Positions 10,801 to 52,891 of a stretch of DNA of 64,000 nucleotides are shown here, one piece after another; position 1 is the first letter of the stretch; each line of letters begins with the position of its first letter. The position numbers and the translations under genes were made by a program. The notes under the pieces are model-generated. The model saw only the letters and a program-made list of their open reading frames with translations. It did no database searches and had not been told where the DNA came from. The stretch comes from Bilabrum cf. latius (lineage: Eukaryota): positions 620,001 to 684,000 of the forward strand of contig OZ237760.1 in the NCBI GenBank assembly GCA_965178125.1, given 5' to 3'.

Positions 10801-12584
10801 GGCCCAGCCAGTGCACCCACATAAGCGAGCTCAAGCAGATCATGGTTGACAGGAATGGCCACCTCAGGAACGAGCAAAAGGCAAAGGAGCTGGCCGCGAA
10901 GGGCGATTCGGGCGGGCGCATGCGCGGCATGTACAAATAGGGTTCGGGCAAGAAGCGGAAGATGGCAGTCACGCGCACGAACATGGCCTCGGCGCTGTCG
11001 TTCAGCGTGACCGATGCAAACGTCCCGCTCCTGCAAGCGGCGAGCGGGGCGGGTTCGGGTGATGCAGAATCCAAACCGCTGGCAGGCAATGACATATTCG
11101 TGCAGCTGCAGGGTGGCACATCGGAAGCCGCAAGGCGGAACAACGCTGAGGTCCGCGCGCTCATGGGGCGCCTAGGAGGCACGTTGTTATCGAATGAGAG
11201 AAATGCTCGGTACGTGGTGATCGTCGATTCCAAGGACGCTGGCGCAGCCTCCATTCTTTCGTCCGCGAAGCGGTTGTACTCGAACGCACAAGCCAAAGCA
11301 TCCGCCAAGCGAGTGTCCGCTATGCGGTGGAAAAACCCGAAAAGGCAGGAAGAAGACCTCCGCAAAGCCGACAGGATCGAGGAGGAGGTGTGCAACCGCG
11401 ACTTTGTGCTGCTCGAGTGGCTGCGTGCCTGCGACAGGGCCGGGCACGTTGTGCCGATCCGCTGGGAGCACGTCATTGTGCCCAGCTTCCAAACTCGCCA
11501 GGAGCTGACCAGGATCAGCGACCAGTTCCACGACTACTACGAAGAGGACGCCACGAAGCAATCACTGGAGCGGTCCCTCGCAGAGGTGGAGCGGCAGGTA
11601 CAGGCGCTGGTTCGGGCTGGCGCAAGGGGGAGCTCGGGTGCTTCCGCAGCCAAGAAGCGTCGAATTGACACATCAGCGGGCGCAGGTGCTGATCTGAGCC
11701 AGCTGGCGCTGTTGCACGGCAGCGAGAGGGAGAGGGAGGACGGTCGTGCTGCATCTCGCGAGGAGCGATTCGACGTGGCTCTGCATGGCATGCTTGCGCA
11801 GCTGATGTAGGACGATCTGGATGGCGAGGGCGGTTCGCAGGACGGCGCGAGCCCGTTCGGCGACTTGGGGTTCCTTACGCAGGGTGAAGCTGGCATGTTC
11901 ATGATGTGGGTGCCTACTTCGTGGGCGTTGATCAACCGCCTCGGGGCGGCATCTGGCAGCTCTGCACCTTCGAAAGCTGCGGCCCGTGGTAGGAGCAAGC
12001 GGGCCAAGGGCGAGCATGCAGGGCCACAGACAGCTGCCGCAGTGCCGAGACGCCTCGTTGTATGGTTCGATGGCAGGCAGCGCGGCACAGTCATAGGCGG
12101 TTCCGACATAAAAGCTGTCCCTGGGTCGAGTTCGGGAAGGGCACTTGCGCTGCGGGAGACATACCTCGCGTAGATCGACTGCGCGTGCATGTGGCTGCAG
12201 AGCCGGGGCGCTGCCATTGCCGGCAGTCGGGAGGACGAGGACGTCCTGGTCGAGGTGCACGGAAGTGGCCCTCCTGGTCCTGACTTTGTGGCGCTTCCAG
12301 GGCGGGCTGTGGTAGGCATGGAGTGGGTGGAGGCTTGCAAGAAGCATGGTACTGCAGTGGATCCGAGTCAGTTCCAAATCTGGTCGCCACAGGACAGCCC
12401 TGCTGGAGGCATTGGAGGAGCACCCATGGAAGATGACTTTGGTATGCCCGCTATCGGCCGAGGCGGATCGAAGGGGCAAGCTCCCATGCAGGGCGCTGCT
12501 CGCAACTCTGGTACGCCAGGTGTTGCCGCAGTGCAGAGGCGGGCACGCAAGGGTAAGAAGAGGTTTACCCGCAAGAGGGGCTAA
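7818..12584 (+). CDS. LIG4: DNA ligase IV (NHEJ), ~1,588 aa, intronless, 8 in-frame TAG
   Basis: N-terminal DNA-binding domain (IRLLLPQESHRNFGMKEKSLA), motif I EDKLDGFR, IDGEL, AFDVL, EGIMLK, Y..GDRSRKWQKLKPEY, DTLDLAVLG, RVGTG, LLFPR and BRCT-like C-terminal segments. TAG at 8157, 8424, 9099, 9510, 10446, 10938, 11808, 12171; ends at TAA 12582-12584. Confidence 0.93.
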
Positions 12585-12712
12585 GTATGAATGCCAAGCA
12601 GGGCAGGCCTAGTAAGTTGGCGCCGGAGCACCCGATTCTGATGCAGTTGCTACGAAAGTATCCATTTTTTGTTCACACAACTTCAAACTCTGCAACAGCC
12701 TACTACAGGAGG

Positions 12713-14677
12713 TCAGGTCCTCCCCGCGGCACCCATCGGCACCTTCGGAACTGCCGACTTTTCAGCACTCTCCTTGCCATTCTGCCCACTCGTCGCCACC
12801 GTACCCAGCGCCACCGGGTCCTCGTAATCCTCCTCCCTCGCGACCTTGACCTTCCTCCTTCCCCAGCTGGTGTTGAGCAGCCCCCTGGGGTTCCAGATGT
12901 GCATGCAGCTCTCCGGCTAGACCTGGTACTGATCGTCGACCGCCCTGCACACGATCTCCACGTCTGCCTCCTTGGGCGCGGCGGCACCCTTGCCGCCCTT
13001 ACGCGCCTGCTCCAGCTTTGCCTGAGGTACGGGTACCTCGGCGCTCCACAGGGTCCACGTCCAGTCCCTGCCTCTCTTCGCCTGGTGCGCCGCGTCGGCT
13101 GGCTTTTCCTCCAGCTCAGCCTCCGTCCAGGTGTCGCCTCCGTCGGCAGACACGTCCACGCGCACGATCTTGCGGCCTCCGCCACTGTAGGCGTACCCTC
13201 GCACAGGCACGCCATCCACCTCGACCTCCCCCAGCGGCAGCACCGCACCCTCCTTCGGCTCGCACACCTGCCCCTAGATCGGCAGGTCCTGGATCGACGC
13301 GGCGGTTTCGTAAGGAAGCTTGGAGGGGTCCGCAGAGGGCGAGAATGACTTATAGTCGTGCTGCTGCCAGTGGGAGGGGCTTTCCTCCTCTGCCAGCACG
13401 ATCCGGTTGAGCCATTTTACCTGCCTGGCACCCACTACCCCGGGTGCAATCAGCCGCAGGGGATATCCGTGGTCTGCGGGGAGCTCTTCGTCGTTCATGG
13501 AGTGCGCGATGATGACGTCAGCGGACGACTGGAGCGCCTTGTGGGCCGGGACAGAGGCCCCGTAGCACTTCCCCGTGATGTCGCAATCAGCGCCCTCCGC
13601 CTGCACGTGAAGCACCCGCCCTAGTTCCGGGTTAGCGCCCCCCTGCATGATGCCGTCCGGGTCCACCCCCGCGTCTTTGAGAAGGTCCCTGAGCCTGACC
13701 CCCGTCCACCTCGCCGTGCCGATAGCCCCGTCCCTCCAAGAGAGCCCCCGGACCTGCCTTGCCTCACTCATCTGCTGCCTGCGGTTACCGGCGCACTGGA
13801 GGGTCACGGGGACCGTGACCTGCGGCAGCCGGTGCTTCAGGTCGTCCACCGTGTATGCAACCCGCTTGCCTCCGAGGCCCAGCCCGCTCACTTCGAGCCT
13901 GAAGCGGCCCGACTCGACGTCTTTCGCTGGAATGTGGGGAACAGCCAGGTGGTTTCTCTTGTAGTGAAGATCGTTTGGCGTGTAGAAGTGCGATGTCAGC
14001 AGCTGGGGGTTGGTCTCGGCATTGAACGGCTGGCTCGAGTTGATGTCGAGGCCCATGCCAGCCAACGGCCGGTCGGGCTCGTGCGCGAACGGGTCGCTAT
14101 CCTCCATCTATTTCTTTGGTTGCTTTCTGGGCTTGGCGGCTAACGGGACGTCTTCTGGGTGCAAGTTGCCAATGCGAAATGTCTCGAGAAGCGAGCGAAC
14201 GCTCTGGCTGTCCTTGTGTATGGCAAACACTTTCCAGAACGGTTCCACGGACCCGCCTGCCGCCATCATAATCTTATCTTTTCCTCCTGGGTGGCTGTCT
14301 ACAAAGTTTGTCACGTCATACACGCCATGTCTGTATATGACCCAGATACCGCCGGTTTCCTTCGACACGTGAGACTTAACTTCTTCTAGCCGAAGAGTGG
14401 GCAAGCCCGCGGTAGGTTCCCCGAGTACGATCCCACCATTGCGTGTATCATGCGATTCAACAGCCTCTGCATCATGCTAGCAACGCAACTGATACGTTCC
14501 GGCGCAGGCTGCGGCTAAAGAAGCGGCTGTTGCTGCAGCCCAGCCAAACGACGAACCGTCGAATCTTCGCCGCCCTTCCGTAACTTCCAACGCACCTAAT
14601 CGGCTACTAGTGGCCAAGCACGCTGCATTTCGGCACGCAAAGGCTATTCGCCAACTTCTCCGGCCTGCCTGACGCAT
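12713..14677 (-). CDS. SUOX: Sulfite oxidase (targeting peptide + cytochrome b5 + Moco + dimerisation domains)
   Basis: Cyt b5 motif VYDVTNFVDSHPGG; PFNAET, RNH, TLQCAGNRR, HGYPLR..PGVVGARQVKWL, GYAYSGGGR, IWNPRGLL. TAG at 14477, 14108, 13274, 12917; ends at TGA 12713. Confidence 0.95.
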
Positions 14678-14825
14678 CGAAAGGCTTGTTGAGCTCGCTT
14701 TGTCCTGGTGCAGCTGACCGCTGATGTTAGTTCCGCAACCGTCGCGCGCGGCGCCCCAGCAGAAAAGTGCACGCTACGCTTTCATTGCACTTGCCTGATT
14801 CCGGCCATCGCGGCCGAGCAAAAAC

Positions 14826-17800
14826 ATGCAGCAGAGTGATAAACTATCTCTTTAGGTTTCGCGTTGGGATCCAGGTCGCCGAAGGCTTCGTTGCTTCGAA
14901 TGTAGTTAGCAGTAGAGGCACGACTTCTGGGCATCTTGGCGACGGTTCAGGCTACTAATAGCCCTATCTGCCCTCGTTGTAGCCGCCAGGATCAGTTTTG
15001 TTCATATTATGCATAGCAGGCATGCTAGACTTCGCTATGAGACTTCGCTGGAATTTGATAAGGATTCCTAGTAGAAGCTGATGTACGGCAGACCAGCAGA
15101 ATTTACGCTTGATGATGGGCACGTTTCGCCGCCTTGGATTGATGATATGCCTGCCGCCGGATAGCTTTACTTACACGACCATGCTCGCCTGCTGGAAAGG
15201 GAGACTGGCGATTCGGCTGGCGAAGAGTCTGAACGATAGTTGCACCCCACTGAATACGACGAGGTCTTTGAGGGCAGTGGCAAGAAAAAGAAGCCAAAGT
15301 CCGACCCAAAGGACGATTTTACTATTCGAATCATGCTATGGGTTACATTGCCAGTGTCCATCTTGATGTGCCTCGCGCTGATGGCAAACTACATTACCGA
15401 CAAGCAGCGTCGTAGGCACCCTGCCTCGCTCGTCTTGGGTCGCTCCATCTACGATGCGATATGCTGCCTCGTTCTGCTCAGCTCCATGATCGTGCTGGAC
15501 AAGGACTCTAAGAAGGACGGCGGCTCGGACGCTGGCAGCGGCGAGGAGGACCTGTGCAGGCCTTTCAGCTTCTTTGTGGAGTTTGCTGCCCTGGGCGCGG
15601 AATTTTACGTCCTCATGCTGTCTCTTGATTTCATGATCGCGGTGAGCAACCCCTTCACGAACTTTCGCCAGAACAGGGGCCGCTACCACTTGGGCGTGGG
15701 CGTCTGCTCCGCCTCCATGTCGCTCGCCATGGTGATGATCGAAGGGGGCTACAAGAAGGGGGAGCCCTCCTTCTGGGGCGAAGACAAGGTCCTTGGGATC
15801 TGCTGGATTCGGAGAGACAACGGGGACACGGATCCCACCAACGTGCTGACCTTCTTCGTGGCCCCCATGTGCTTCGTGTTCGTGGTGGCGCTGTACGCAG
15901 TCATGTTCGCCAACCAGCGGCTCGGACAGGGGCTGCCAGCCACGCTGCAGACCCGGCTGTCGGTGTTTAGGACGCACATTGCATTTGTGGGCAGCTATGT
16001 CGTGTACTGGTTCATCTTTGCGGCCGCGTACATCGCCAGTTTGACTGAGAGCAAGAAGGACGGGAGCAGGGACACCCAGGGTGTGGGCATCGCGGTGCTG
16101 CTCGCGATCGCCGTGGGCTCCAGAGGAATCGTGACTGGGCTCGTGTGGTTTGCATCCAGGAATGCCATTTCCTGCTTGTGTGCAGGAAAGCAGGACGGCA
16201 GTGGCGGCTCCAGCAGGCGGCGGACGGGCAGGGCTAACGACCTGAACGTCGCCTTGAGGAAAGAGATCCTCTTCTACACTACCTTTGGGATCCGCAAGTC
16301 GGTCAAGTATGCCGGCAGGTTTCCGAAGTGCGACCGGACGGGCGGCGTGAACCCGAACTCTGCCACTGCGAGGCGGGAGGGGCTGGGTAAGGTGGGTATC
16401 CACTACAACCGCATACTGCTCACGCGCGAGTTCGAGGCGGGCAGCTGGACCCGGCAGAGGAGAGGGGCTGGCGATCATGGGCGCAGGGGGGCCGGGCGTG
16501 GCAGAGGCAGGGCAGGCAGAGGCGAAGATGGGGGCTCGGCAAGCAGTGCAGCCACGGCTGTGCCCAAGATTGAGGCCAGGGGAGAGACTGCGCGGGTGAC
16601 CGGGGGCTCGTCCGCCTCCGGTGCTCGCGGTGGGGCGGATCGCCAGGCCACGCTCCGGGCAGTCAGGGTGTCGGAGTCACACGGCGGCATCGGACAGCTG
16701 GTGAGGCGCGGGAGCGGCACGGTATCTGGGAGCTACGTGCCGCCGGCCATGGGAGGGACCTCAGAGCTTAGCAATGAACATGATATTGGAGCAGGTGCCG
16801 GGCAGGGCAATGGTACAGGTAGAGCGGGACGAGGCGCGAGATCTTCCGCCATTGCGTACATACAGCAGGGGCCGCGAAGCCGCAGGCGTCGTCAGGCGCG
16901 CGGCGTGGCCAAGCTGGCTGGCGCAGCGGTCCGGGCGGGGCAGCACGTCGCCAAGACGATCGGCTCCCAGATGGGCTCTATGCGGTCAGCAGCCGGGGCT
17001 CCAACGCGGACGGACTCCGGCACTTTCTCGCTGGAACAGAAGCGGGGGGAGTACCAACCGACTAGAGGAGCCTAGAACGGCCAGTCTCAGGCTCGCAGCT
17101 TGGCTGTGCCCGACAAGAAGCGGGCCTAGACGGTGGGTGTTGGCCAGTCTCGCCGAATCACCGCCATCTCTCTCCCACGGATGAGCCACGAGTACAACTA
17201 GAGCCATGACGGCGGCGGCGGATCTCCCCACCTTGGCGTGGTGGGTGGTATGGAGGGCGCGGAGCCTGAGCTGGGTCTGGTGGGCAGCGGCGTCGGCGCC
17301 TCTCCATCGAGGGGCGGTCGCAACGCATCGATCGGATTCGCGGCGGAAAGCGCACGCAGGGCACGTGAAAGTGGCCTTCCCCCGGGGATGCAACGGTCGG
17401 TGACGGAGATGGGGCACCTACGGGGCCGCACGTCCATGCCTGCCGCAGCGAAGCGCGACAGGCGAACCTCTGGTGAATCGAGCGAGAGCGATTTTGTGGC
17501 TGGGCTGGGCAACCAAGAAGAGCTTCGGCAGGAGCAGGAGCGGGAGGAGAAGGCTGCGATGGCCGGCGCTGCCGACATTCCCATCGCGTTGGTGAGCGGT
17601 GCCGGCGGAAGGGGCCAGAGCGGGGCCGGTGGCAGCACGCCGACTGGCGTGGCAGGTGCGCTCAATGCCGCTCTTGGGCTCGGAATCAACACGCAGGCGC
17701 AGCAGCAGGGCGCCGACATTTCTGCGCTGGTGAATCCCGACGGGGCTCGCTCTGACGTGGAAGTGACGTCATCGTCCGACTCGAGCGACGGGAGCTCAGC

Positions 17801-20800
17801 GTCAACTGGATCTACTGGAAGCGGTAGCCAGTCTGGGTCCGAGTCGGTGTCGGGAACCGTCCGAAGTGTGAGGACAGGGACGACCGGCGGCGACGCCGTG
17901 GATGCGAGCAGCAGCGCGGCCGGTGCGACAGGTCAAGACCACTCTATTCTTCGGCCAGCGCCTGGCGATGATAGCAACAACGGAGCAGCGGGTCGTCACG
18001 CCAATACGCCGGAGGGCAGCGAGGCCGGGAGCCGGCTAGCGTCCATCGGAGCCTCCGACGACAGCGAGAACGACGAGGGGATCGAGGGTGGGATGGCTGC
18101 CCCACGGTCCCGGTCGCGGGGGCCTCCGATCGCGGTTGCCACAGCGGTGGCCATTCCCGTGACTGGGGGTTCGGGCGGGTCTGGCACTGGCTTGGACGCG
18201 CAGCTAGACTCCGAGATGGACGCGATCCAGAGACAGCAGCAGCTGCAGCGCGCCAGTCACCACGATCGCAGCTCTCTGCCGCCGCTGACCGCGTCTGCTA
18301 CCAACTCGCACACAATGCGGTCCGTTCCGGCAGATTCGCTTCACAGCCTCAACGCCGGGGAGCCCTTGCGGATCAAGACCACGGGTGGGCGCGAAAGCGG
18401 CGACCGAGTGGATGCAGACAGCAGCGGTCACGCCACCCCTGACATGTTCTCGCGGATGTCACCCGCCCCGGGCAATTTGAAGATCGAAGATGCCTGGGAT
18501 ACAACGCACGGGGTCGCCGACCTGCACCCACCAATGGGCACCAATTTGGACGCTGCCTAGGCGCAGGAGCTGCGGGCTGGCTTGCTGGGCACGGGCGCGG
18601 GAGTGCACACTGGTATCGCATCCAGGCTTGCCCTGCATCACCACAGGCTGCAAGCGCAGGCCAGGGAGGGCGACGGGACCGGATCCTCCTCGCACGCGCG
18701 GGGGTCCTCTCCGGGGAACACATCGAACGAGGGGAAGGCGGCAGCGGATGGCACCACGACGTCCTTGAGCTCGAAGCACCACCACCACCACCATCACAGA
18801 AGGGGCAGCCACCATCGGCACCATCGGCACCATCGCCACGGCCACCACCGGAGCCACGGTCACGGTCACCACGACAAGAACGACGTGCGGACCAGGTACT
18901 CCCGCATGTACGGCGGGTACGGCCCCGGGCATTTTATTGGTGGATTCGGCGGGGAGCAGACGCATAACGACCTGATGCTGTTCGCCAAGCAGTGGGACCG
19001 CATTCGCAAGTGGATGTCGCTGGAGGAGCGCTGGCAGCACTCGGAGAAAAAGAGGCAGCACCGCCTCAGGAAGCTGAGAGACGCACCAGTGGAGGACAGC
19101 GAGGCGCAGACCCGGCTGCGGGAGCTGGTTGCACCCCATCCTAGGCCCATGCCCGGCTCTAACCCCACCTCGGCTGCCCCATACGAGCACACAACTCTGC
19201 CAGCGATGTCTAAGGGCGCCGGCAGCTTCTGGGAGAGCTGTCTAGAAGACACAATCTTCGGGGAGGTGCTGCAGTACCTGACCTGCGGGAACCTATTTGG
19301 GTGCGACAACGAGCAGGCGTTTGTTTTTAGAGACTACGAGCCGCACATTTTCAAGAGGATTCGGGAGCAGGATGGCATCGAGTAGAACGCATACGAGAGC
19401 GCGTTAGGAGAGACCCGTCGCGAGAAGTTCAGCGAGGGCGCAAGCGGAGCATTCCTGTATTTCAGCGGCGACGAGCGGTTCATCGTGAAGACGATGCAGA
19501 AGGAGGAGTGCGACCAGCTGCTGGCGATGCTTTCGGACTACCAGCAGCATCTCAAGGCGTACCCCGACAGCTTTCTGACTAGATTCTACGGATGCCACAG
19601 CCTTCGGATGTACGGGCACGTCATGTACTTTGTCGTGATGGGCAACGTCTTCATCACGCAAGGGAAGACCATCCACGAGAGGTTTGACCTGAAGGGTTCC
19701 TGGGTCAACCGGCACAGGCAGCCTGTGGAGAAGGGCAAGCAGATGGAATGCAGGTACTGCAACCAGAAATTCGTGGTGGGGGACAAGCGCGAGGACGGCA
19801 TGTGCACGGCGAGACCGAACCGCAACCACGAGCCCAACAACGTCAGCAAGGACAACGACCTGAATTTCAAGCTGAGGCTGGACCACGCAACCACGAGGGC
19901 TGTCGGCGACACCATCATCGCGGACACCAATTTCCTTCGCGACCACGGCATCATGGACTATAGCCTTCTGCTGGGCATTCACCGCGAAACGTATCACCTG
20001 ATGGTGGAGAACAACGACGAGAACGGCGATGGTCTCGTCTCTGGCGGCGGTGCCTCTTCAGAGCTCTCTGCAAAGCGAGGAAGCGGGACAGGGGGCTCTC
20101 GCTCGCATCTCTCGAGGGATGGAGGGCACGGGAACGGGAACGGCCGTCCGCCGCGCATGGGCCGGCACCTCGCGACCACCAGTCATATTCGCGGCGTCGT
20201 GGCCGTGTCAACTGAGAGCAAGCTGGGCTAGTGGGCCACTGAGGACGCGTAGAAGGAGTACATCGGGGAGGAGGGAATGCCTGAGCCAAGGGCTGCTAGC
20301 CAGGGCGGTGGGGCCTCCGCGTATTCGGCGGGGGCAGGCAGCCGCAGTGGGATGGGGCAGCGGGGCGGGCACCGCGGCGGTTCGTTACCGACGGATGGTC
20401 TCCGCGGCGTAGAGGATACCCGCCACCACGGGCACCACGGGTCCATGCGCTCGCACGTCTCTAGCCTCCGTGGCGGGTCCATGACCCATAAACCGAGCCC
20501 GCTCCGATCTGCAGTCCTACCCAAGCGCGGTGAGGGGGGTGGGGACCAGGCCAGGTCCAGGCAGTCCCAGTCTCGCGATCGCTCCTCAAGGGCCGGTCAG
20601 TCGGCAGGCGGGGTGGGACTCGACAAGACTGCGTCAGGGGCGTTTCACGGCAGCAAGATAATGGATGCCGGGGGCCAGAGCAGGGGCGTGCTGCGTCGAC
20701 TGGACACGCCGAAACCGAGGGAGGAGGGCTATCGCGCTGAACGGCGCACTGGATCCGGCGGCAATCACCGGGATCGAGACATGACGCAGCGGCTGCGGCG

Positions 20801-22607
20801 AGCTCCCACTGAGGGCGGGCAAACCACCTGGGGCCTTCACGTCGGTACGCCCACGGAGAGAGGCAGCGGGGGCGGTGGCAGCGCCTGGGGCCTGGAGAAG
20901 CCCCCCACTCCAGCGGTAGGGCGGTCGTTGGACATCGGGCCAGACGCCGGACCTGGGCATGGCCTCGCAGATCAGGCGGACGCGGAGGAGGCCGAGCTGG
21001 AGGCCCTCCGGAAGGGGGGCCGGAACCGCGGGGGTGTCCAAACCGGCGGGAACAAGCAGCCTTCGGGTGCGATCAGGGTGTCTGGCGCCCAGCGGGACGC
21101 CGACGACATGGAGGACGTGCTGGGGCTCGCGGTGGGCGGGTTTGCGGGAGAGCTGCGGGACGAGCTGTGCGAGGGGCAAGGTCGGAATTCAGGCGATGAT
21201 GCGCCGCCTTCTTCGCCGCCGAGAGGGGGCGTGCAGGACGAGGAGACACTGGGCATGCTGGCAGGTCATGCTGTGTGGTCCGACGCCCGTGGCATGGCCG
21301 TTGTGGACGAGGAAGCAGCGCGGCGGCCGGACGACGGCGATCTGCCCGGAGGTGATGATGAGGGGCAGGGGGGCGACCTCGGCGTGGTGTTGCACTCGGC
21401 GTCGCACCGCAACAGCAAGTCCAAGAAGGGTCGCGATAGAGGTACCGAGGACGGCAAGGGCAGAGGCCGGGCGGCAGGCCCCGTGGCGCAGGTGGTCGGC
21501 CTCAGATAGGTACCCTCACGTGGCTCGCTTGCGCAGCAAGCACTGGGCATTGCTGCTGGCGGCGTGGGGAAAAGCGAAAGCCAGAATGGGGCCGGGAGCG
21601 GCAGCGGCCCGGCGGTCGCCCCAGCACCAGGCCTGCACGCGCCTCGCTTCTCGCGTGTCCGTTCAGTTTTGGGGCACGACACAATGATGTCAGGAAAGGC
21701 CAGCGAGGCGGGCGGCGGAGGGCCGTCTGCTGCAGCTGCATCGCGTACAGTGGATGGGCATTCGGAGGCCGGAAGGGGAAGGCTGCGGCACAGGCGCGCG
21801 CACCGGCACAAGGGTGGTGGAGGCGCAAGCAGCAGCGCGCTGGCGAAGGCAGCTGCTGCGGAGGAGGGCAGGGTCTCGAGCAAAGAGGCTGGTGCTGGGA
21901 CGGGCGGCATGGTGGAGTCGCAGTTCCGCAGTTTTTACGGCGGTCTCCGCGCTGCGATGGTAGAGTCGCCCGGCATCTACTACATGGGAGTCATCGACAT
22001 CCTGCAGGCGTTCACGCTCGAGAAGAGGATGGAGCGCTTCGTGAAGACATACTTCCTGTGCCAGGACCCGCTTGGGATCAGTGCGATCGAGCCGAGGCAG
22101 TACGCGAGCCGGTTCCGCCGCAGGGTTGTGTACTAGTGCCTGGACCACTACGTGCCCACGTCCGACCAGAAGGATCTGGACTTCGAGGACGAGGCCTTGG
22201 ACATGGAGGAAATGGAGGAAATGGGCTGCCTGCGCGGGTGGTTGCGGTGCGAGGGGGACGATCATGAGGACGAGGTGGAGCGGATTTGGTTGGAGAGGCT
22301 GGCAGATGAGCGGAGATAGGGTTAGCTACAGCGGGTGGCTGTGCTGCGGTCTGGACATGGGTCTGGGCCCGGCAGGACGGGGACGAGGAGGAGCTCTATG
22401 CACGGGTCTGGGTCCGCGTGGGGGGTGCAGCAACCGCCGGTGCTGGGGCGGTAGGCCACGGTATCTGCTTACGGACGGGCGCGGCTGCCATCGGCCGAAC
22501 ACGCCAAGGCTGGGCCTGTCGCAGTTCCTAGGTCGCACGCGCAGCACGGCAGAGCGACCGCAGCTCTGGATTCCGGCGACTTGAGCAAGCCCCTGCTGCG
22601 GGACTAA
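14826..22607 (+). CDS. GPCR-PIPK fusion (7TM receptor + PIP5K kinase), ~2,590 aa, about 19 in-frame TAG
   Basis: 7TM region ~15330-16160, then the LR(x)9GI motif LRKEILFYTTFGI. PIPK motifs FRDYEPHIFKRIR, FSEGASGAFLYFS, FIVKT, FDLKGSW, KDNDL, IMDYSLLLGIH and YYMGVIDILQ. One frame with no TAA/TGA from ATG 14826 to TAA 22605-22607. The start could alternatively be 15009 or 15081. Confidence 0.9.
18777..18872 (+). repeat. His-rich (CAC/CAT) low-complexity coding tract within GPCR-PIPK
   Basis: Encodes HHHHHHHRRGSHHRHHRHHRHGHHRSHGHGHH. Confidence 0.8.
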
Positions 22608-22745
22608 TTGTGCATACCCGAATCGCATGCTCCGTTTCAAAGTTAGTGTGGTTGTGCCCAAAATGTAGTAACGCGATGACACGAAAGGCATTCGGATCAC
22701 TGGCAAACCCGGGAACGTCATCGCTTCGCCTTGCCTACCAAAACT

Positions 22746-22778
22746 TTGCCCGAAAATCAAGATTCGTTCGTTCGTTCG
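22746..22778. promoter_or_regulatory. Intergenic 33-bp motif TTGCYCGAAAATCAAGATTCGTTCGTTCGTTCG, copy 1
   Basis: 32/33 identical to 53046-53078; lies ~70 bp upstream of the Nudix ATG. A regulatory role is inferred from position only. Confidence 0.5.
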
Positions 22779-22847
22779 CTGCTCTTGAAATAAGCGCTAC
22801 AACTACTTGGGGCGTCATATTGTCCTCTTTGACATCCTTAGGGCTCC

Positions 22848-24587: not shown

Positions 24588-24728
24588 GCCGGTTCAGTGA
24601 ATTGCAGCCTTAGATCTGCATAAAGCCTATCGACACTGTTCGACATCACATTGGATTTCACGTTGGAAATATATCGTAATCTGGCCACATCCGCAATTGC
24701 GCACCACAAAGCAGCAGCACCGCGCCAC

Positions 24729-32333: not shown

Positions 32334-32566
32334 ATTGCTGGAACTTCGATCTGAAATCTCCGAAACCAACGGTCTGTAAAATTGCAATTCCGAGTTGTTG
32401 ACCGGCTGCATGCACTGGTGGCCACTGACGGGCAGAGGTGACCCTGTGTGTACGATGCGTAGTCACGACTTCGATCCAAGCGTGATGGCAGGAAACGCGC
32501 CAATTGTATTAGAGAGTATGCATTGCAAGCACGGCAGCACTGCTGTAGGCCTAGAGCCAGCACTGG

Positions 32567-37900: not shown

Positions 37901-39574
37901 CTGCTGGTCTCCCGCAATCATGTTAGAGTAGACCAGCTTGGCGAGGTCCAGCGTGACCTTGAGCGATATGGGGATCATGGTGCTGTTAAGGAGGAGGAAC
38001 CTGGCCGGGATGATGAGCGGCTGGTAGCCGGGCTCATCGTCCCTGCTCGGGTACAGCAAGTACCAAGTGTCCCGGCCGTTGTTCTCTTTCCATGTGTTCC
38101 CCAGTACGCCTAGGATGGCCACCAGCACCAGCTAGAACGCAAAGATGTAGATGACGATCTCGTTGATCGCGTCATCGGTACGCGTAAACTTGGGAGCCGG
38201 GGGCTTCTTGTTCTTGCCAAACTTGGTCGCGTTGCCCACGTACACGACGAGGGCCAGGGCCCAGTCCGTGTTGCGGACGTGGGTGGCCTGCAGCAACAGG
38301 TTGCTGGCGTCCAGTCCGACCCCTTTCTCTCTCTGCCCCACGTCGGCTTTCTTCTCGTAGAGCACGCCCTCGAACTCGCCCAGGTTGTCGTCGGGGGGCT
38401 GGCAGGTCACCCCCCCCGTGAAAGAAGCGGCAGCGGCGGGGGTCTTGATGGACTTGGTGATGGGCCTGCTGAAGCGCCCCTTCAGATTGGACTCGCCGTC
38501 CAGGTTTGTCGTCTGGATGAAGCAGTCGCCGTTGGGTGCGGAGCTGGCCAGCAGGACGCAATCGCAGGGCACCTCGTCGTCTCCGTGCAGCTTGAGGATG
38601 TCGCCCACGCGCACGTCCCAGCTGGCAGTGCTAACCTCCTCTCCCCCCCGCAGCACACGCACCTGCCTGTTGTTGGCCTCGCGGTCGGACCTCCATCTGC
38701 CCAGGTCGTCCGAGGCTTCCTTAACGGCCGTGATGCCGAAAATCACTGCGAGCGAGCGAGCACGAGCGTGAAACGGGCGGCCAAGCACGGGAATGCAGGT
38801 TATGGCGCTGATGAAATACGCAGGGGAGTTGACGCTTCTATTCGACGAGCGGCGAATTTGCCAGACACGATCCGACCCGCACAAAAGTCCAAAACTACCG
38901 GAGGGGCGATGTTCGACTCCTGCAGGCCCTTTCTCACCTAAAAGCGGAATCCATGTCGTCAGTGGATCGACGGGAGTAATTTCACTGTTCAATTGCAGGA
39001 ACCCGATCAATAAAAAGTACAGATTCATTGGACGACTGCGATGGAAAAACGACGTGGTGTGCATACGGGTGGAAACAGTGGGCCAGTCGGCTGCACTGAA
39101 TTCGAATACAGGAGGGCAAACACAAGGACCGGTTACGTTGATATCAGTTCCAATGCCTTGCTAGGTCAGCTGGGAGAGCACAGCAAGCAAGCGGCAATTG
39201 GGTGCACGCACGCACCTAGCTTCAGAACATGCATCGGGCTCGCCCTGCCAGCCAGGGCTATAGTTTACTTGCAGCTCCAATTCGGCACGCAAGAGAAGCC
39301 TGCCCGCTAACGCAATCAAGCTGTGGCGCACACCATGATGAACATCCAGACCGTGCACGAGCCAAACTAGGTTTGAAGCGTCCACGACATGCTTTCGCCA
39401 AACAATACTGCATCCTCACCTGAACTACTCAATAAGATTATACAGGATGAAGTTGTACCATGTATATTTCGTGTTTGTAATGGTGTTGTCGCCATAAGGG
39501 GCATTCGACTCAGGGTCATTGGCTAGGATCCGCCTTTCGCCCTCCTCCTCGCCACCCCACGGGCACATTCCCAT
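34943..39574 (-). CDS. P4-type ATPase (phospholipid flippase, ALA2-like); 3 exons
   Basis: NTITNTKYTWYNFILYNLIE*FS|RPMNLYFL; LDGESNLK; IPISLKV; DKTGTLTQN; SPDEEA; KGAD; TGDK; CCRVTPAQKA; IGDGGNDVSMIQ. Introns at 39036-39419 and 38746-38937. TAG at 39425, 38132, 36653, 36647. Ends at TGA 34943, though the 3' end may differ (see findings). Confidence 0.93.
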
Positions 39575-43070: not shown

Positions 43071-44906
43071 TCACTGCCTGCCGCCCTGCACCTCCTGCCC
43101 GGCTGCAGCACCCTCGGAGCCGCCGCCGAGCACGAGCCCGACCTCCTGAAGAGCCTCCGTGTCCTGCGTGACCCTCGCCACCACGCACGCCTGCAGCTCG
43201 TCGAACTGCTCCCGCTCCCGCTCCCTCCCCTCCCGCAGCTCGGCCGAAGCGCTCGCCCCTGCGCCCAGCCTGTCACTGAGGTCGGCGTTCTTCTTGAACT
43301 CGGTCTCGAATGCGCTCGCCTGCGAGGGGCAGACCACCTGTCCGGAGCACATCATCAGCGCAAGGTGCGCCGTCGCCCTCTCCTCCTCCGTGGAGGCGCT
43401 CGCAAGCCGCTTCTTGATCACGCTGCAGCGCTTGTCAAGGCCCTCCAGGCGGGCGGCCGCGGCGCGCTGGGCCTCCGTGAGCTTTTTCTTGGCCGCGGCT
43501 GCGGCCTCTGCGGCTCGCCGAGTGACGCCAGCGGAGGGTGCCGCCTGTTCCGCAGCCCGGGCGGCCTGCTCCGCCTTGTTGGCCCCGTGGGTCTCCCCCC
43601 CCTGGTCCAGGGCAGCCTTGACCTCTGCAGGGACCTGGGAGGGGTCGATCCCAGAGGAGTGGAAGACGAAGGCGGGTCTGCGGAGGGCTGCAAGCATCCT
43701 CTCCGAGAAGCGCGCGATCCGGTCCATGGCGGCAGAGGGCGAGTCCACGGCGGGCCGCACGTCCACCCAGATCGAGTCGAGGCTGCCGGTCCCATCCGCC
43801 CCAGCGTTGGGGTTCGGCTGCCCCTCATCCACAGAGTAGTAGTCAATGATGTACCTGACTTCCTTGCCGTCACCCCTGTCCACGTACCAGTCGTGCCTAT
43901 CAAAGGGGAACCCCCAGCCGAGCATGCTCTTGAGCTTGGCCTTGATCGAGAGGTCGTACGGACGTCCGCGGAACCGGCGCAGCTTGGGGCAGCCTGGCTT
44001 GTGTTCGCTGCGAGAGCAAGGATGCAGAGGTGAATGATGCAAAACATGAGCACATACGGCGGATGGATCACATGCAATACAGGGATGCCGCACTGTTGGG
44101 GGCGGCGCGCTACCAGGCGACACAGAGGCCAGCCCATCAGCACCGATCAGCCCGAGCACTGCGCAACGTCCGCAAGAATCCAGCCGGACAAGCAAAGCAA
44201 AACAAATGATTCCAAGCAGAAAATGCAATGCAATAGACCAGTCTCACGCTCCGTGCAGCTTCTCCCAGTCAAGGAGACGCTTCCACGTCAGCTCGTTCAT
44301 GCCATTGTGAATCGCCACTACCACGTCCATGTCGCTGGCTGTCACGTCATGCGCCTTGTTCTTCCTAACTAAAGCATTGTAGAACATCTGTGGGGACGGG
44401 TATGTCCAAGTTTCCTTCTCCGTGCCGCCCTTTGGGATGGAAGACCTCACTCGCTCGGTAGACAGAGGAGCGTCCTGACCAGGGGCAGGCTTCTGCGTGT
44501 CGAGCCCCTTCGGCATCATGTTATCAGGGTTGATCTCCTAGGAATAAACATTGTAAACCTTCCCTTTGGCCGCCGAGTTTTCTGCCTTAGGCTGGGTGGA
44601 CGGCTGCGAAACCTGCTCCTGGCTCGCCGTTCCCCGCTAGGGCAGCGTGGGATGGCCAGCCGGCAGGCTTGAGGCGGATGCCATAGCCTGGTCCGGAGAC
44701 TCTTTACCTTTGTCGTGGTACGGGCACTGGCCTGCCCCGGAGCGCATCATATCCGCCAGGCCAGGGATGCTCTTGGCTGACTTGCCGCTGTGATCAACAG
44801 GGCAAGACCCAGCTTTGGGTGCCTCTCCGTGATTAACTGGGCACCCTTTGGCCTGCGAACCGCCATCACCATCACATCGTGACATCGAGTTCGGGACATT
44901 CCCCAT
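43071..44906 (-). CDS. HCCS: Holocytochrome c synthase (cytochrome c heme lyase) with a C-terminal extension; 2 exons
   Basis: CPV heme-regulatory motifs (GCPVNH, SCPVDH); YNVYS*EINPDNMMP; LSTERVRSSIPK; WTYPSPQMFYNAL.RK; IHNGMNE..W; FRGRP..LS.KA; PFDRHDWYVDR; VRYIIDYY; VDVRPAVDS. Intron 44008-44247; TAG at 44637 and 44538; TGA 43071. Confidence 0.93.
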
Positions 44907-46346: not shown

Positions 46347-46950
46347 ATGGCGGCAGCAGGAGCCGCGGTTCCATCCGAACCGTTTATTAAGATTATAACG
46401 TAAGCTAGCTGATGTTTGTTGCCTTTCATCAAGGTCACAAAATCGGCCTGCCTACTGCCAGACGTTGCGTTCCGGTTTCGAGATATTCACAATTTGCAGG
46501 GGTGACGGCCACACATTCCACGTCGAACGGAAGTGTGCTTTTGTGTCTAGCACAATTCGAACCATGATGACCGGTAAGAGACTGGTTTATGCTGTGTTCC
46601 AGGCTTTTTCTTGCCACATGAATCCATTCAACCCATGCACGAGTTGTATTTCGCATCGGCTTGCAGGGGAAATGGCTGAGGCCCGAGAAAATGTCGCTAG
46701 ATTTCCTGAGATTGACGGCCAAGTCATGGAGCGAGTAATTCAGTACATGCATTACAAGGTGAGTACTTGCTCAGCAGGATTGCCCGAACGAACATCTCGC
46801 ATCCGAAGATTGTGCTGCTGCATGTTTCGCACCACATCTCTCGAATCGCAGGTTAAGTATAGCAACAGCAGGACTCCACCACCGGACTTTCGCATCGCCC
46901 CAGAGATCGCGTTGGATTTGTTGATGGCTGCCAACTACTTGGGGTGCTGA
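46347..46950 (+). CDS. ELOC: Elongin C; 4 exons
   Basis: [46 protein letters not shown]...[13 protein letters not shown]...[22 protein letters not shown] then TGA. Introns at 46400-46499, 46574-46666 and 46759-46851. No TAG codons. Confidence 0.95.
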
Positions 46951-47319
46951 CTAGGCCGCGAGGAATTCGCGTAGTTTGTCGTGTGGCTGATATGCTAACA
47001 CAGGAAATGCTATCACAAAAATCTCCGTTCCTATAGTGCTACCAGGTTCGATCTGCTGCAGCCCAACACCCCACCGACTCCGGTCCAACGCAAACCATCA
47101 CATCCCGCGCACTCGTGCTCGGACCCCATTGTCAGTGGCCTGTGGTCGTCACTGTGCACGCCATGGTGCTGTCCATGGTGTTGTCCACTGGTCGAATGAG
47201 CCAGACTACCAGCAATGCAATGGACGCGTCCGTCTATCGAGCATCGACACATGTTCGAGTGGGCGCATGACAACTGGCCCCCCTAGGCACGACTTCAAGC
47301 AAAGCAGAATAGCACCCCA

Positions 47320-47820
47320 TCACTTCTGCTGCTTCATGAAATGCACAATACCAGCTCCCACCAGGCCCCCAACGACTGCAGCGATACCGCACTGGACAGC
47401 CATTTGTGCGAGATCTGTCTTCGCTGCTCTAGGGGCTTCAAAATCCACAGCAAACTTGTCCGAGCAGATCGCCCCGATGGCTTTCTTGATATCGCAATGG
47501 ACAGGGTCGGCCTAGTATTCCTCAAGCGCCTTCTTGCTGGCCACTCGAACGCTGAGGCCGATGTCGTACTTGCCTGTGCTCACTGGATGGAAGTTGTTTC
47601 CGACGCTTACCTCCTCTACGGTGGGTACAGTCTCTACCATACTAGCAACTGCGCAAAGTACCATAGGCAACTATGACTTGAATATGCTGTTTCCGAGCCT
47701 GTCAGTGAATCAAACTGCGTATCAATAACCAGTCACTGTCTTACGGTCTCCCATGACCTTCTCGATCGTGTTTGCACTGGTTCCCTCCTTCCATTTAAAC
47801 AAAACAATGTGCTCAACCAT
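47320..47820 (-). CDS. Stress-responsive A/B barrel (Dabb) protein with a C-terminal transmembrane tail; 2 exons
   Basis: MVEHIVLFKWKEG...D|LASMVETVPTVEEVSVGNNF...YDIGLSVRVASKKALEEY*ADPVH...FAVDF, then a hydrophobic tail and TGA 47320. Intron 47649-47744; TAG 47512. Confidence 0.85.
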
Positions 47821-47966
47821 TGCGCCGCGGGTGTTGAGAATGGAATGGGCCCGTGTCTTGGATCCAATGGCGACAATTAAGTGCATCATCTTCGTAAATT
47901 GTCGCACCGAGTAATTGAGTAGACACTAATACTCTAGTTAAGCATGCGCCACACAAAGTCCAAGCA

Positions 47967-50465: not shown

Positions 50466-50649
50466 GAGTACTGCTTTCCTTCGGTCAAACAGCTACATTG
50501 CGTCTTGGGGAATGCAGGCAGCAGTTTGCCCCCCGAAACCGGAACCAAAACCGGAATTCAACAAATGGACAAGGGTTCCTCATCTGAGTCCGGGTTTTGT
50601 TACGATGTAGTGAGTGCAGCCTCGTACTTACGGCCCGAAGCCACAAGCA

Positions 50650-52891
50650 TTAGTCCTCCAGCCAGTCCTCTCCCAGCCCCTCGTCCGTGGCCTCACCGGC
50701 GACAGCCCCCGCCCCGACGTCGTCCTCACCGAGCCCCTCCATCCCATGCTCCTCTTCTTCCTCGTCATCCTCTCCTCCCTCCCCCGCCCCTTCTTCATTG
50801 CTGCGCTACTACTGCCCTTCTTCCTGCACTTGATCGCCGGCACCGTTGCTGCCCCCACCATCCTCCTCCTCCTCCTCCTCCTCCAGCTCCCCTTCAGCAG
50901 CAGCAGCAGCAGCACCCGCCGCGCCCTCCTCCATGAACACGTCGTCATCTTCATCTTCGTCCCGGCCATCCTCATCCCCACCCAGCTCCAGGTCCGCCTC
51001 CTCCTCGCTGCCACTGCCAGCCTCCTCTTGATTACCCTCACCATCACCGCCACCGCCACCCACCTCAACCCCCACTTCGCTCTCATCCGCAGCCCCAGCA
51101 CCGGCCCCAGCACCGCCATCATCCCTCTCCTCCTCCTCCAGCGCAGCCGCGTCCTCCTCGTCAGAGTCCCCGCCCAGTCCCACCACAAGCTCTCGATCAT
51201 CGTAGCCTGCGCCGGCAGCAGCAGCAGGAGCAGCGGCAGCTGCACCACCAACGGCAGCCCCAGCAACGACAGCACCGCCAGCAGCAGCACCACCGGCTCC
51301 GATCGCCGCCGCGCCACCCATCTCGATGTCACCTTCATCATCGCCCGCACTCGTCACACCTGTCACGCCCCAGTCCTGGACCCCGTCCCCTCCGCCCGCC
51401 ATGTGGTAGTCCGCCCGGACGGGGGCGTAGACGTACGCGATCGTGTACACGTACGCGTTGAACAGGACGTGGAAGAACATAAAGTCCAGAGCGTGGTCGA
51501 CGTCGAACTGGTACACGGCACCCACCCCCAGCCCTGCGATCGTCGCTGCCAGGATGAACACGTGCAGCGCAAACACGGCCCGCTCCCCGTCTGTCCTCCC
51601 GTCGCACACGTTCTTGGTCGAGCACGCCAGCAGCACCACGACGTACAGCCCGTAGAGGCCTGCCATGAGCAGCCCCAGCACCTCGAGGAACACGAGGACG
51701 GCCCCGTCCTCGGTCCAGTCGTACAGCGGGTCCTGCTGCTGCCTGAAGATGACCCACCCGTAGAAGGACACGGCCAGCAGCCAGTACACGAACATGAGCA
51801 CGATCTTGGGGAGGAAGAAACCGCAGAAGGTCAGCCTCTCGGGCTGCTCCGCCGCCAGGATACCGAACTCGCCCAGCAAGAAGGTCATGAGAGCTGCCAT
51901 GAAGGTCACCTGGAAGCCCAGCTGGATGAAGGCGAAGAAGGCCCGCGGGGTGTAAAACTCGAGGATGAACACGGGATTGTTGTACAGGAAGAGCAGCACG
52001 AGCAGGAGAGCGATCCAGTTGAGGCTAAAGGCGCTGTCTGCAGTGGCTGATGGGTCCAGGCACAGCCCGCAAAAGGCGGAGCCCCTGCGCCCGTCGGCGT
52101 TCACGGCGGACTGCGCGTAGACGTACGTGAGGCCGACCATGAGCGTGGTCACGCACAGGGTCAGCTTCACGCCGAGCTCGAGCTGGGCGAAGGCGGCGTT
52201 CCTGTAGCGGAACAGAAAGTCGACCGTGTCGATCGTAGAGAGGTCCTGGTCCCCGGGCAGCTGCACCTCGAAGTAGTAGAGCGAGTACTGCACGCTGTTG
52301 GTCCTGAAGACGAGCAAGGGGTCGCACGAGCCGGCCCCAGAGTCGCAGTCGAGGACCCTCGTCACGTTTTCGGCCGCGATCGTGTCCCAATTTGAGGCAT
52401 CGGTCGCGTCCTTGCCGGGCTTCAGTCCCATCCACCGCACGTGGAGATCCAGGTTCCTCTCAATCTTGCTGTCGAGCTCGTCTTGCGGGCGGTGCACCGT
52501 CATGTCGAGCTCGAAAAACTGCACTAGGCAGTCGAAGGGCATCAAGAGATCGGGATTTGCAGGAAATTTGACAAAAATATAAACTTTGGCTCGCATGAGA
52601 ATGCCTCACCTGCGTCCAACGCTTCGAGATCTGGAATTCATGATTCCAGCACCGTGGAATTCGAGGAATAATCGCACGAGACGTCTCGTCCGAAACGCAT
52701 CTGGTCGCGGGGTTTGCGAGTTCAACATTGGTACCTCTCTGTGACGGAGCCTTTTCGATCAGCATGCTCGGTCCTAGCACGCCGGCCAGCACCGCGATAA
52801 CAATCAGCAACGCATTGACCGCGGCAATCCCGATGCAATGCGTCCGAGATATGTAAGACAGCCGCTTTCCTGCAACTCCACTTGGATTCAT
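50650..52891 (-). CDS. TMEM181: TMEM181 (Wntless-related) multipass membrane protein with an acidic tail; 2 exons
   Basis: KRLSYISR..GVLGP; NAAFAQLE; LLFLYNNPVF; FFLPKIV; FNAYVYTIAYVYAP. Intron 52519-52609; CAG TAG TAG at 50814-50806; ends at TAA 50650. Confidence 0.8.

What the first reader, a model, noticed from the sequence alone, without database searches (positions are those of the whole stretch)
12582..50652. UAA is decoupled from UAG and appears to remain a stop
I found no in-frame TAA inside any exon, although CAA is common and TAG occurs about 125 times. TAA appears only at three inferred gene ends (LIG4 12582, GPCR-PIPK 22605, TMEM181 50650); the other 17 visible ends are TGA. Most known eukaryotic UAR reassignments change UAA and UAG together, so a split implies an eRF1 that reads UAA/UGA but not UAG, plus a CUA-anticodon tRNA. 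Caveat: a TGA follows the LIG4 TAA two codons later, so that case alone is not decisive.
Basis: partly seen in the sequence, partly recalled or inferred. Interest (0 to 1): 0.8.

Follow-up and report, generated by a model that had tools for sequence, protein, structure and literature searches.

The report
UAG codes glutamine, UAA still stops
In this GC-rich eukaryote the stop codon UAG has become a glutamine codon while UAA (rarely) and UGA (usually) still end genes, a rare but already described kind of genetic code seen here in what may be a new lineage.

Summary
In 21 coding stretches (18,492 codons) TAG is in frame 129 times, and TAA and TGA never. About 31 TAA would be expected if TAA:TAG followed CAA:CAG (P about 1e-12). 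Of 19 visible gene ends, 16 are TGA, 3 TAA and none TAG.

TAG means Gln. One sulfite-oxidase TAG aligns with Q in 120 of 120 homologs. Against a syntenic relative (L001), 7 of 8 well-aligned TAG columns pair with CAG.

TAA terminates. The relative's PIPK ends with TGA in the same alignment column as the window's TAA. A relative's TMEM181 protein ends at the residue just before the window's TAA. Coding signal drops after both. The LIG4 TAA cannot decide, because TGA follows two codons later.

The code matches the UAG-to-Gln-only type known from Iotanema, Protocruzia and two phyllopharyngean ciliates. In the cases whose stop usage I read, UAA is the dominant stop; here UGA is. The relative shares the code, so it predates their split.

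The proposed mechanism, a tRNA-Gln(CUA) plus an eRF1 that ignores UAG, could not be tested. No genome is held and no tRNA lies in the window. The organism is unidentified, and its GC content differs from Amoeboaphelidium's.

The parts
12582..12584 (+). TAA at the end of the LIG4-like gene (CDS about 7818-12584). TGA follows at 12588-12590, so this end is not decisive.
   Evidence: A contig of run X5 covers 7761-12675 without differences.
22605..22607 (+). TAA stop of the GPCR-PIPK gene (CDS about 14826-22607). The next in-frame TGA is at 22677-22679.
   Evidence: The ortholog in L001 ends with TGA in the same alignment column (...GDLSKPLLRD-TAA against ...GDLRRPLLQG-TGA). GC3 falls from 0.73 to 0.35 and the coding score from +0.08 to -0.66 after it.
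50650..50652 (-). TAA stop of the TMEM181/Wntless-like gene (CDS 50650-52596). The next in-frame TGA is at 50485-50487.
   Evidence: Relative protein P0241 (81% identity, 663 aa) ends at ...GLGEDWLED, the residue before the window's TAA. The coding score falls from +0.51 to -0.31 after it. Read-through to the TGA would run past the first ATG (50498) of the next same-strand gene.
12917..12919 (-). In-frame TAG in the sulfite oxidase Mo-co dimerisation domain, at an invariant Gln position.
   Evidence: Q in 120 of 120 homologs. It aligns with Q of chicken sulfite oxidase 1sox.
13274..13276 (-). In-frame TAG in sulfite oxidase at a mostly Gln position.
   Evidence: Q in 69 of 120 homologs, T in 28, I in 15. 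Q in 1sox.
22134..22136 (+). In-frame TAG in the conserved C-lobe of the PIPK domain (RRRVVYqCLDHY).
   Evidence: It pairs with CAG in L001; 15 of the 17 surrounding columns are identical.
38132..38134 (-). In-frame TAG in the P4-ATPase gene.
   Evidence: Relative P0121 has Q at this position (IFAFqLVLV against IFIFQLVLV).
14799..22675 (+). Stretch covered by one intron-less 7,877-base contig of run X5. It bridges all 19 in-frame TAG of the PIPK CDS and the TAA.
   Evidence: table 8: 0 other letters and 0 gaps. The TAG are therefore in this contig unchanged. That X5 is RNA-derived is my inference; the tool labels it 'RNA? (probably DNA)'.
12713..12715 (-). One example of the 16 TGA gene ends (sulfite oxidase). 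The others are at 3508, 5342, 6354, 24585, 24729, 32567, 34943, 42776, 43071, 46948, 47320, 47967, 53308, 59921 and 60108.

Best explanation
The organism uses a nuclear code in which UAG is a full glutamine codon, while UGA (the main stop) and UAA (a minor stop) still terminate translation. This is the UAG-to-Gln-only type; from recall, it equals NCBI table 15. Shown here: TAG is in frame at Gln positions, TAA is never in frame, and TAA sits at orthologously confirmed C-termini. A relative about 70-79% identical in DNA shares the code. Inferred, not shown: UAG is read by a tRNA-Gln with anticodon CUA, probably derived from tRNA-Gln(CUG). Such a tRNA cannot pair with UAA. eRF1 would have lost efficient recognition of UAG while keeping UAA and UGA. 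Since nothing decodes UAA, it stays a stop even though this GC-rich genome seldom uses it.
For: TAG is sense. The longest ORF is 612 aa with TAG as a stop and 2,603-2,627 aa with TAG read through. Ten of the 16 long ORFs have Pfam domains.

TAG means Gln. In sulfite oxidase, 120 of 120 and 69 of 120 homologs have Q at the two TAG in conserved context. Against L001, 8 TAG columns have at least 10 of 17 identical neighbours; 7 pair with CAG and 1 with CGT. P0121 has Q at the P4-ATPase TAG.

The contig of X5 that spans the PIPK gene carries the TAG unchanged.

TAA is not sense. It occurs 0 times in 18,492 in-frame codons, where about 31 to 61 are expected. It occurs 0 times in 11,972 codons of the Pfam-supported genes alone and 0 times in 3,389 codons of L001. 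TGA-only ORFs have no internal TAA.

TAA is a stop. The PIPK ortholog ends with TGA in the same column. P0241 ends at the same residue as TMEM181. Coding score and GC3 fall after TAA as they do after the TGA stops. No gene end is TAG (0 of 19).
Against: Only 64 kb plus a 10.9 kb relative were available. A rare sense use of TAA, well under 1 per 20,000 codons, cannot be excluded.

Only 3 genes end in TAA, and one of them (LIG4) is uninformative.

The stop codon behind P0241 is not known, because only the protein is held.

Of the 22 TAG columns where both species have a codon, 13 pair with non-Gln codons. Twelve of these have at most 9 of 17 identical neighbours, many of them in low-complexity stretches; the thirteenth is the CGT column at 12 of 17.

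Two of the 4 sulfite-oxidase TAG lie in variable regions where Q is only 10 of 120.

Neither the tRNA nor eRF1 was seen. That runs X5-X7 are RNA is my inference from spliced joints, not their recorded type.
Confidence: 0.87

Rival explanations
1. Both UAR codons are reassigned to Gln, as in the ciliate, dasycladalean and hexamitid code. TAA is simply too rare to appear in 64 kb of a GC-rich genome, and the three TAA 'ends' are read through to the next TGA.
For: The genome is 60% GC and TAA is the rarest of the three triplets: 197 on the + strand against 496 TAG and 739 TGA. A-ending codons are disfavoured; CAA is 19% of CAR.
Against: A-ending synonymous codons are still common in frame (CAA 150, AAA 124, GAA 284). 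About 31 TAA are therefore expected and none is seen (P about 1e-12). Orthologs end where the window has TAA. Coding signal collapses after TAA. Read-through of the TMEM181 TAA would overlap the start of the next gene.
Confidence: 0.03
2. UAA is neither a sense codon nor an efficient stop. It would be effectively unassigned, or leaky and context-dependent, with the three TAA ends backed up by downstream TGA.
For: Each of the three TAA is followed by an in-frame TGA, 2, 24 and 55 codons downstream. TAA is a minority stop, 3 of 19.
Against: At two TAA ends a relative's protein ends at the same position. In L001 the PIPK codon there is TGA, a single-base stop-to-stop change. The 23- and 54-codon tails look non-coding. 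In-frame TGA within a few dozen codons is expected by chance at the off-frame TGA density (619 of 36,942 triplets).
Confidence: 0.06
3. The code is as described, but the mechanism differs. There is no dedicated tRNA(CUA). UAG would be read by the ordinary tRNA-Gln(CUG) through a first-position mismatch, made efficient by a weakened eRF1 or an altered tRNA or ribosome. This is analogous to the tRNA-Trp(CCA) with a shortened anticodon stem that reads UGA in some trypanosomatids and ciliates (PMC13092985, abstract seen in a search listing).
For: No tRNA gene of any kind was found in the window or L001, so nothing favours either mechanism. Panek et al. note that the tRNAs behind most nuclear stop reassignments remain unidentified (PMC5304391, passage read).
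Against: TAG is as frequent in frame (129 of 18,492 codons, 7.0 per 1000) as out of frame (7.9 per 1000). That implies efficient decoding, which in other lineages goes with cognate CUA tRNAs: Tetrahymena and hexamitins (PMC5304391) and the Leu-CUA tRNAs of two TARA ciliate MAGs (PMC11687900, passages read).
Confidence: 0.12
4. Artefact: the TAG-bearing ORFs are pseudogenes, or the TAG are edited or spliced out of the mRNA.
For: None found.
Against: There are 129 TAG but no TGA, TAA or frameshift in 18,492 codons. Contigs of run X5 span whole genes with 0 differences from the DNA and keep the TAG. TAG positions are Gln in homologs. The relative has TAG at other Gln positions.
Confidence: 0.01

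Closest known systems
Iotanema spirale (Fornicata) nuclear code: UAG = Gln, UAA and UGA stops (Panek et al. 2017, PMC5304391; passages read)
   Same: Only UAG is reassigned, and to glutamine. UAA is kept as a stop. The same mechanism was proposed there: a tRNA-Gln(CUA) derived from tRNA-Gln(CUG), plus an altered eRF1.
   Different: The organism here is an unrelated, GC-rich, intron-poor eukaryote. In Iotanema UAA is the dominant stop; here UGA is (16 of 19) and UAA is a minor stop (3 of 19). Iotanema's eRF1 carries T32G in the GTS motif; eRF1 was not seen here. Iotanema was known from a transcriptome; genomic DNA and a syntenic relative are available here.
Ciliates with UAG = Gln only: Hartmannula sinica, Trochilia petrani and Protocruzia tuzeti (McGowan et al. 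2024, PMC11687900; passages read). NCBI table 15, 'Blepharisma', is recalled, not checked in a call.
   Same: The codon table is the same: UAG is Gln, and UAA and UGA are stops.
   Different: Ciliate genomes are AT-rich to moderate in GC (27-54%) and UAA is 'the preferred stop codon'; UGA is their least used stop. Here GC is 60% and UGA dominates. The argument that UAA is protected from reassignment by heavy use does not apply here.
UAR = Gln codes: Tetrahymena and other ciliates, Dasycladales/Cladophorales/Trentepohliales, hexamitin diplomonads, Streblomastix, and Amoeboaphelidium protococcarum as reported
   Same: UAG is read as Gln and UGA is the main or only stop.
   Different: UAA is also Gln there. 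Here TAA is in frame 0 times in 18,492 codons and ends genes. The window is probably not Amoeboaphelidium, whose assemblies are about 40% GC (PMC10608142, table 1) against 60% here.
Other UAG-only reassignments: rhizarian exLh (UAG = Leu, PMC5304391) and Scotinosphaera (UAG = Ser with TAA as a stop, PMC8271138; passages read)
   Same: UAG is decoupled from UAA, and UAA is retained as a stop.
   Different: The amino acid differs. Here TAG sits at Gln positions: 120 of 120 Q at one site, and 7 of 8 CAG in the relative.

Membership tests
UAG-to-Gln-only nuclear code (Iotanema / Protocruzia / phyllopharyngean type) | UAG occurs in frame at conserved glutamine positions | tested here: met
   Q in 120 of 120 and 69 of 120 homologs. 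7 of 8 well-aligned TAG columns pair with CAG in L001. Q in P0121.
UAG-to-Gln-only nuclear code (Iotanema / Protocruzia / phyllopharyngean type) | UAA does not occur in frame inside coding sequence | tested here: met
   0 of 18,492 codons in the window and 0 of 3,389 in L001. TGA-only ORFs have no internal TAA. The sample is only 64 kb plus 10.9 kb.
UAG-to-Gln-only nuclear code (Iotanema / Protocruzia / phyllopharyngean type) | UAA terminates genes | tested here: met
   Two of the 3 TAA ends coincide with the C-terminus of an ortholog, and coding signal drops after them. The third, LIG4, is uninformative.
UAG-to-Gln-only nuclear code (Iotanema / Protocruzia / phyllopharyngean type) | UAG is not used as a stop | tested here: inconclusive
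   0 of 19 gene ends is TAG. However, ORFs were extended through TAG by construction. Only for PIPK does an ortholog show conserved sequence beyond the last TAG.
UAG-to-Gln-only nuclear code (Iotanema / Protocruzia / phyllopharyngean type) | A tRNA-Gln with anticodon CUA and no tRNA with anticodon UUA | not testable with these tools
   No genome is held. No tRNA in the window or L001.
UAG-to-Gln-only nuclear code (Iotanema / Protocruzia / phyllopharyngean type) | An eRF1 N-domain altered so that UAG is not recognised | not testable with these tools
   eRF1 is not in the window, and no permitted query sequence or genome was available.
UAR-to-Gln code (ciliate / dasycladalean / hexamitid type) | UAA in frame at Gln positions alongside UAG | tested here: not met
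   129 TAG against 0 TAA in frame; about 31 TAA expected.
Codes with all three stops also used as sense (Condylostoma, Blastocrithidia, Amoebophrya) | UGA and UAA in frame in coding sequence | tested here: not met
   Neither TGA nor TAA is in frame in the CDS stretches. The one apparent in-frame TGA, in HCCS at 44244-44246, lies in a GTGAG...CAG intron.
UAG-to-Ser (Scotinosphaera) or UAG-to-Leu (rhizarian exLh, TARA ciliates) | UAG at conserved Ser or Leu positions | tested here: not met
   The conserved TAG positions are Q. One P4-ATPase TAG aligns with L in a human homolog in a variable membrane helix, but with Q in the close relative P0121.

The most novel reading that the evidence does not exclude
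The window and its relatives (L001, and probably the sources of P0241 and P0121) would represent an undescribed clade of GC-rich, intron-poor eukaryotes outside ciliates and metamonads. A single sulfite-oxidase tree places the window next to oomycetes (support 0.80). The clade inherited a UAG = Gln code in which UGA, not UAA, is the dominant stop. This would be the first UAG-only reassignment in which UAA is rare as a stop yet still not captured. UAA would then be kept by mechanism (CUA anticodon, eRF1 specificity) rather than protected by heavy use, which is the explanation offered for ciliates. Genome data exist, so the tRNA and eRF1 changes would be directly readable.
Probability: 0.45. Interest if true: 0.7.

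Novelty: new member of a known kind. Interest (0 to 1): 0.55.

Why it matters
UAG and UAA almost always change meaning together in nuclear codes. Each independent case where they split helps separate two explanations for that coupling. One is tRNA wobble, since a UUA anticodon also reads UAG. The other is a limit on what eRF1 can tell apart.

[quoted passage not shown] Its retention there could be put down to the cost of losing it. Here UAA ends only 3 of 19 genes and is still not a sense codon, which points to mechanism rather than usage.

There is also a practical point. Gene callers that use the standard code or table 6 would mis-annotate this genome. Under table 6, two of the 19 proteins (PIPK and TMEM181) would gain false tails of 23 and 54 residues, and LIG4 two residues. 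Under the standard code nearly every long gene would be cut into pieces.

Tried and rejected
- **Whole genome:** none is held.
- **tRNA and Rfam scans:** the window and L001 gave nothing.
- **Sequencing runs:** no RNA holder is listed. I laid X1, X5, X6 and X7 on 5001-25000.
- **Contig ends:** the X5 contig over PIPK ends at 22675, 2 bases before the next in-frame TGA. That would be telling if it were the mRNA 3' end. But contig ends are not transcript ends, only one run reaches this place, and other contigs end 4 bases after (NUDIX) or just before (kinesin) their stop codons. I do not use it as evidence.
- **PDB alignments:** those of PIPK and the P4-ATPase put TAG at variable positions and were uninformative. 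The kinesin search at E <= 1e-40 returned nothing.
- **Model-free scan:** I looked for stop triplets flanked by coding-like sequence on both sides. It flagged 3 of 377 TAA, 40 of 975 TAG and 0 of 1,487 TGA. The 3 TAA (35739 +, 51953 +, 15605 -) all lie antisense to Pfam-supported genes, where the mirrored GC3 mimics coding. The scan is weak, since it recovers only 40 TAG, and I rely on the gene-based counts.
- **Identity of the organism:** an aphelid was considered and is unlikely, because Amoeboaphelidium assemblies are about 40% GC (PMC10608142). A green alga was considered because of the Ala/Gly/Ser-rich inserts and plant-like P4-ATPase hits; this is unresolved. The best homologs are only 45-50% identical, apart from the unnamed relatives. 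The Atlas search gave family but no useful taxonomy.
- **Literature:** eight searches found no report of a UAG = Gln-only nuclear code outside Iotanema and the ciliates. The library lacks most subscription journals. Karpov et al. 2013 and the 2022 aphelid genome paper were not read. No supplementary files were opened.
Full report
**What the window is.** The 64 kb is 60% GC and is densely packed eukaryotic nuclear DNA. With TAG as a stop the longest ORF is 612 aa. With TAG read through, ORFs reach 2,603-2,627 aa.

Pfam recognises a DNA ligase IV-like gene, a cytochrome-b5/Mo-co sulfite oxidase, a PIP5K with a long N-terminal region, a NUDIX hydrolase and a DENN-kinesin fusion. It also finds a P4-ATPase, a cytochrome c heme lyase, a Wntless/TMEM181-like protein, an S10 carboxypeptidase, a Myb protein, GH79, a Dabb protein, an Elongin C-like protein and a CH-WW protein.

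No whole genome is held. No tRNA or Rfam family lies in the window.

**Check of the observation.** I first used ORFs bounded by TGA alone, so that neither TAG nor TAA was prejudged. The 16 long ORFs (18,441 codons) hold 124 TAG scattered along their length and 6 TAA.
- LIG4 codon 1603 of 1605
- PIPK codon 2603 of 2627
- TMEM181 codon 652 of 707

The other three lie 5' of the first ATG (the 3508-5214 gene) or 5' of the end of the sulfite-oxidase contig.

In 21 CDS stretches (18,492 codons) TAG = 129, TAA = 0, TGA = 0, CAG = 628 and CAA = 150. If TAA:TAG followed CAA:CAG (19% A), about 31 TAA would be expected, giving P about 1e-12. From the TAA density in the other two same-strand frames (122 of 36,942), about 61 would be expected. 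In the Pfam-supported genes alone (11,972 codons) TAG = 60 and TAA = 0.

Nineteen gene ends are visible: 16 TGA, 3 TAA and 0 TAG. The coordinates and the TAA GTA TGA at LIG4 are as stated.

**What TAG encodes.** Green algae of the genus Scotinosphaera read UAG as Ser, and a rhizarian reads it as Leu (PMC8271138, PMC5304391), so Gln had to be tested.
- In sulfite oxidase, the TAG at 12917-12919 aligns with Q in 120 of 120 homologs.
- The TAG at 13274-13276 aligns with Q in 69 of 120. The other two TAG lie in variable regions.
- One metagenome contig, L001, is syntenic with window 17484-27320 (PIPK, NUDIX, kinesin) at 70-79% DNA identity in the conserved blocks.
- In the PIPK and kinesin alignments, 22 columns have TAG in one species and a codon in the other. 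Eight of them have at least 10 of 17 identical neighbouring columns. Seven of those 8 pair TAG with CAG and one with CGT.
- The other 14 columns sit in weakly aligned, often low-complexity sequence. They pair with CAA (1), TAG (1) or other codons (12).
- A second unnamed relative's P4-ATPase fragment (P0121, 77% identity) has Q where the window has TAG at 38132-38134. Its gene call stops just before a window Gln, as expected if a TAG sits there.

TAG is Gln in the window organism, and the L001 and P0121 comparisons are consistent with the same reading in its relatives.

**Do the TAG reach the mRNA?** Contigs of runs X5, X6 and X7 carry intron-less joints at 7063>7183 and 7255>7411, and X6 also at 7491>7593. 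These are GT..AG on the minus strand, and the DNA-like run X1 lacks them. The longest X5 contigs also break at gene boundaries. I therefore read these runs as RNA-derived, although none is on record as RNA and the tool labels X5 'probably DNA'. One X5 contig covers 14799-22675 with no difference from the window. It bridges all 19 TAG of the PIPK CDS and the TAA.

**Is TAA a stop?** Three lines of evidence bear on this.
- *PIPK.* The C-termini of the window and L001 proteins align to the last residue...GDLSKPLLRD then TAA, against ...GDLRRPLLQG then TGA. The sequences diverge beyond that point. TAA and TGA differ by one transition, the pattern of a stop-to-stop change.
- *TMEM181.* The only database relative, P0241 (81% identity over 99% of the query), is 663 aa and ends at ...EATDEGLGEDWLED. 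That is the residue before the window's TAA. Its own stop codon is unknown.
- *Downstream sequence.* In frame after both TAA, the codon-usage score and GC3 fall as they do after most of the 16 TGA stops (the gene ending at 5342 is an exception). TMEM181 goes from +0.51 and 0.73 to -0.31 and 0.54. PIPK goes from +0.08 and 0.73 to -0.66 and 0.35. Reading TMEM181 through to the TGA at 50485 would run past the first ATG (50498) of the next gene on the same strand.

LIG4 cannot discriminate. L001 adds 3,389 coding codons with 14 TAG and 0 TAA, and its three gene ends are all TGA.

**Mechanism.** The codon assignments are shown; the machinery is not. The simplest model, taken from Panek et al. 2017 and McGowan et al. 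2024 (passages read), has two parts. A tRNA-Gln(CUA), one base away from tRNA-Gln(CUG), reads UAG but not UAA. eRF1 has lost UAG recognition. TAG is as frequent in frame (7.0 per 1000) as out of frame (7.9 per 1000), which fits efficient, cognate decoding. A rival without a dedicated tRNA cannot be excluded here.

**Comparison with what is known.** The codon table matches Iotanema spirale, Protocruzia tuzeti, Hartmannula sinica and Trochilia petrani (PMC5304391, PMC11687900). From recall, it also matches NCBI table 15. So the kind is known.

Two things differ.
- *UAA is not the main stop.* In Iotanema, the rhizarian exLh and the phyllopharyngeans UAA is the dominant stop, and the ciliate authors argue that this fixes it as a stop. 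Here UGA ends 16 of 19 genes and UAA only 3.
- *The lineage looks different.* The genome is GC-rich and intron-poor, with short GT-AG introns of 101-155 bases. It has a GPCR-PIPK-like gene, and its sulfite oxidase falls next to oomycetes in a single-gene FastTree (support 0.80). That is weak evidence.

The window is probably not Amoeboaphelidium, which is reported as UAR = Gln and whose assemblies are about 40% GC (PMC6299283, PMC10608142). Eight literature searches found no matching report.

**Verdict.** This is a real and rare code variant of a known kind, probably in a lineage where it has not been described. It has one instructive twist: UAA is a minor stop and yet has not been captured. 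The tRNA and eRF1 predictions remain open for lack of a genome.

Noticed in passing
window 44006-44247 (-): The two halves of the cytochrome c heme lyase gene are in the same frame and separated by an in-frame TGA at 44244-44246. The TGA is part of a GTGAG 5' splice site. A CAG acceptor lies near 44008, so this looks like an ordinary intron of about 240 bases and not a recoded TGA. No RNA contigs were laid here.
   Followed up: partly
window 6147-7760 (-): A calponin-homology plus double-WW-domain gene has three short introns of about 119, 155 and 101 bases, seen as joined forms in contigs of X5, X6 and X7. The spliced frame holds 2 TAG and ends in TGA at 6354-6356.
   Followed up: yes
window 24732-32462 (-): One 2,577-codon ORF combines an N-terminal DENN domain with a C-terminal kinesin motor preceded by a microtubule-binding region. 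This is an unusual architecture, and L001 conserves at least its motor part.
   Followed up: no
window 12652-12675: Contigs covering the convergent LIG4 (+) and sulfite oxidase (-) genes overlap by about 24 bases at their 3' ends. Intergenic spacers elsewhere are about 150 bases, so the genome is very compact.
   Followed up: no
window 22746-22780: A (TTCG)n microsatellite lies in the PIPK-NUDIX spacer. The DNA-like contigs of run X1 break here, and short high-depth contigs pile up.
   Followed up: partly
L001 6210-6341: The NUDIX ortholog of the relative has an intron of about 130 bases that the window gene lacks. This shows intron gain or loss between the two species.
   Followed up: partly
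window 35739 (+), 51953 (+), 15605 (-): Frames antisense to real genes score as coding in this GC-rich genome because GC3 is mirrored. The only three TAA with coding-like flanks on both sides all lie in such antisense frames. This is a trap for model-free scans.
   Followed up: yes
window 6690-6750 and 9034-9062: GC-rich low-complexity coding repeats (Pro/Ala/Gly-rich) produce many chimeric joints and loose ends in the contigs of all four runs. These joints are assembly noise, not rearrangements.
   Followed up: no
window 46399-46950 (+): An Elongin C-like gene (Skp1_POZ match; it ends ...[10 protein letters not shown] then TGA) appears to be split by at least two introns. Its exon structure was not worked out.
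   Followed up: no
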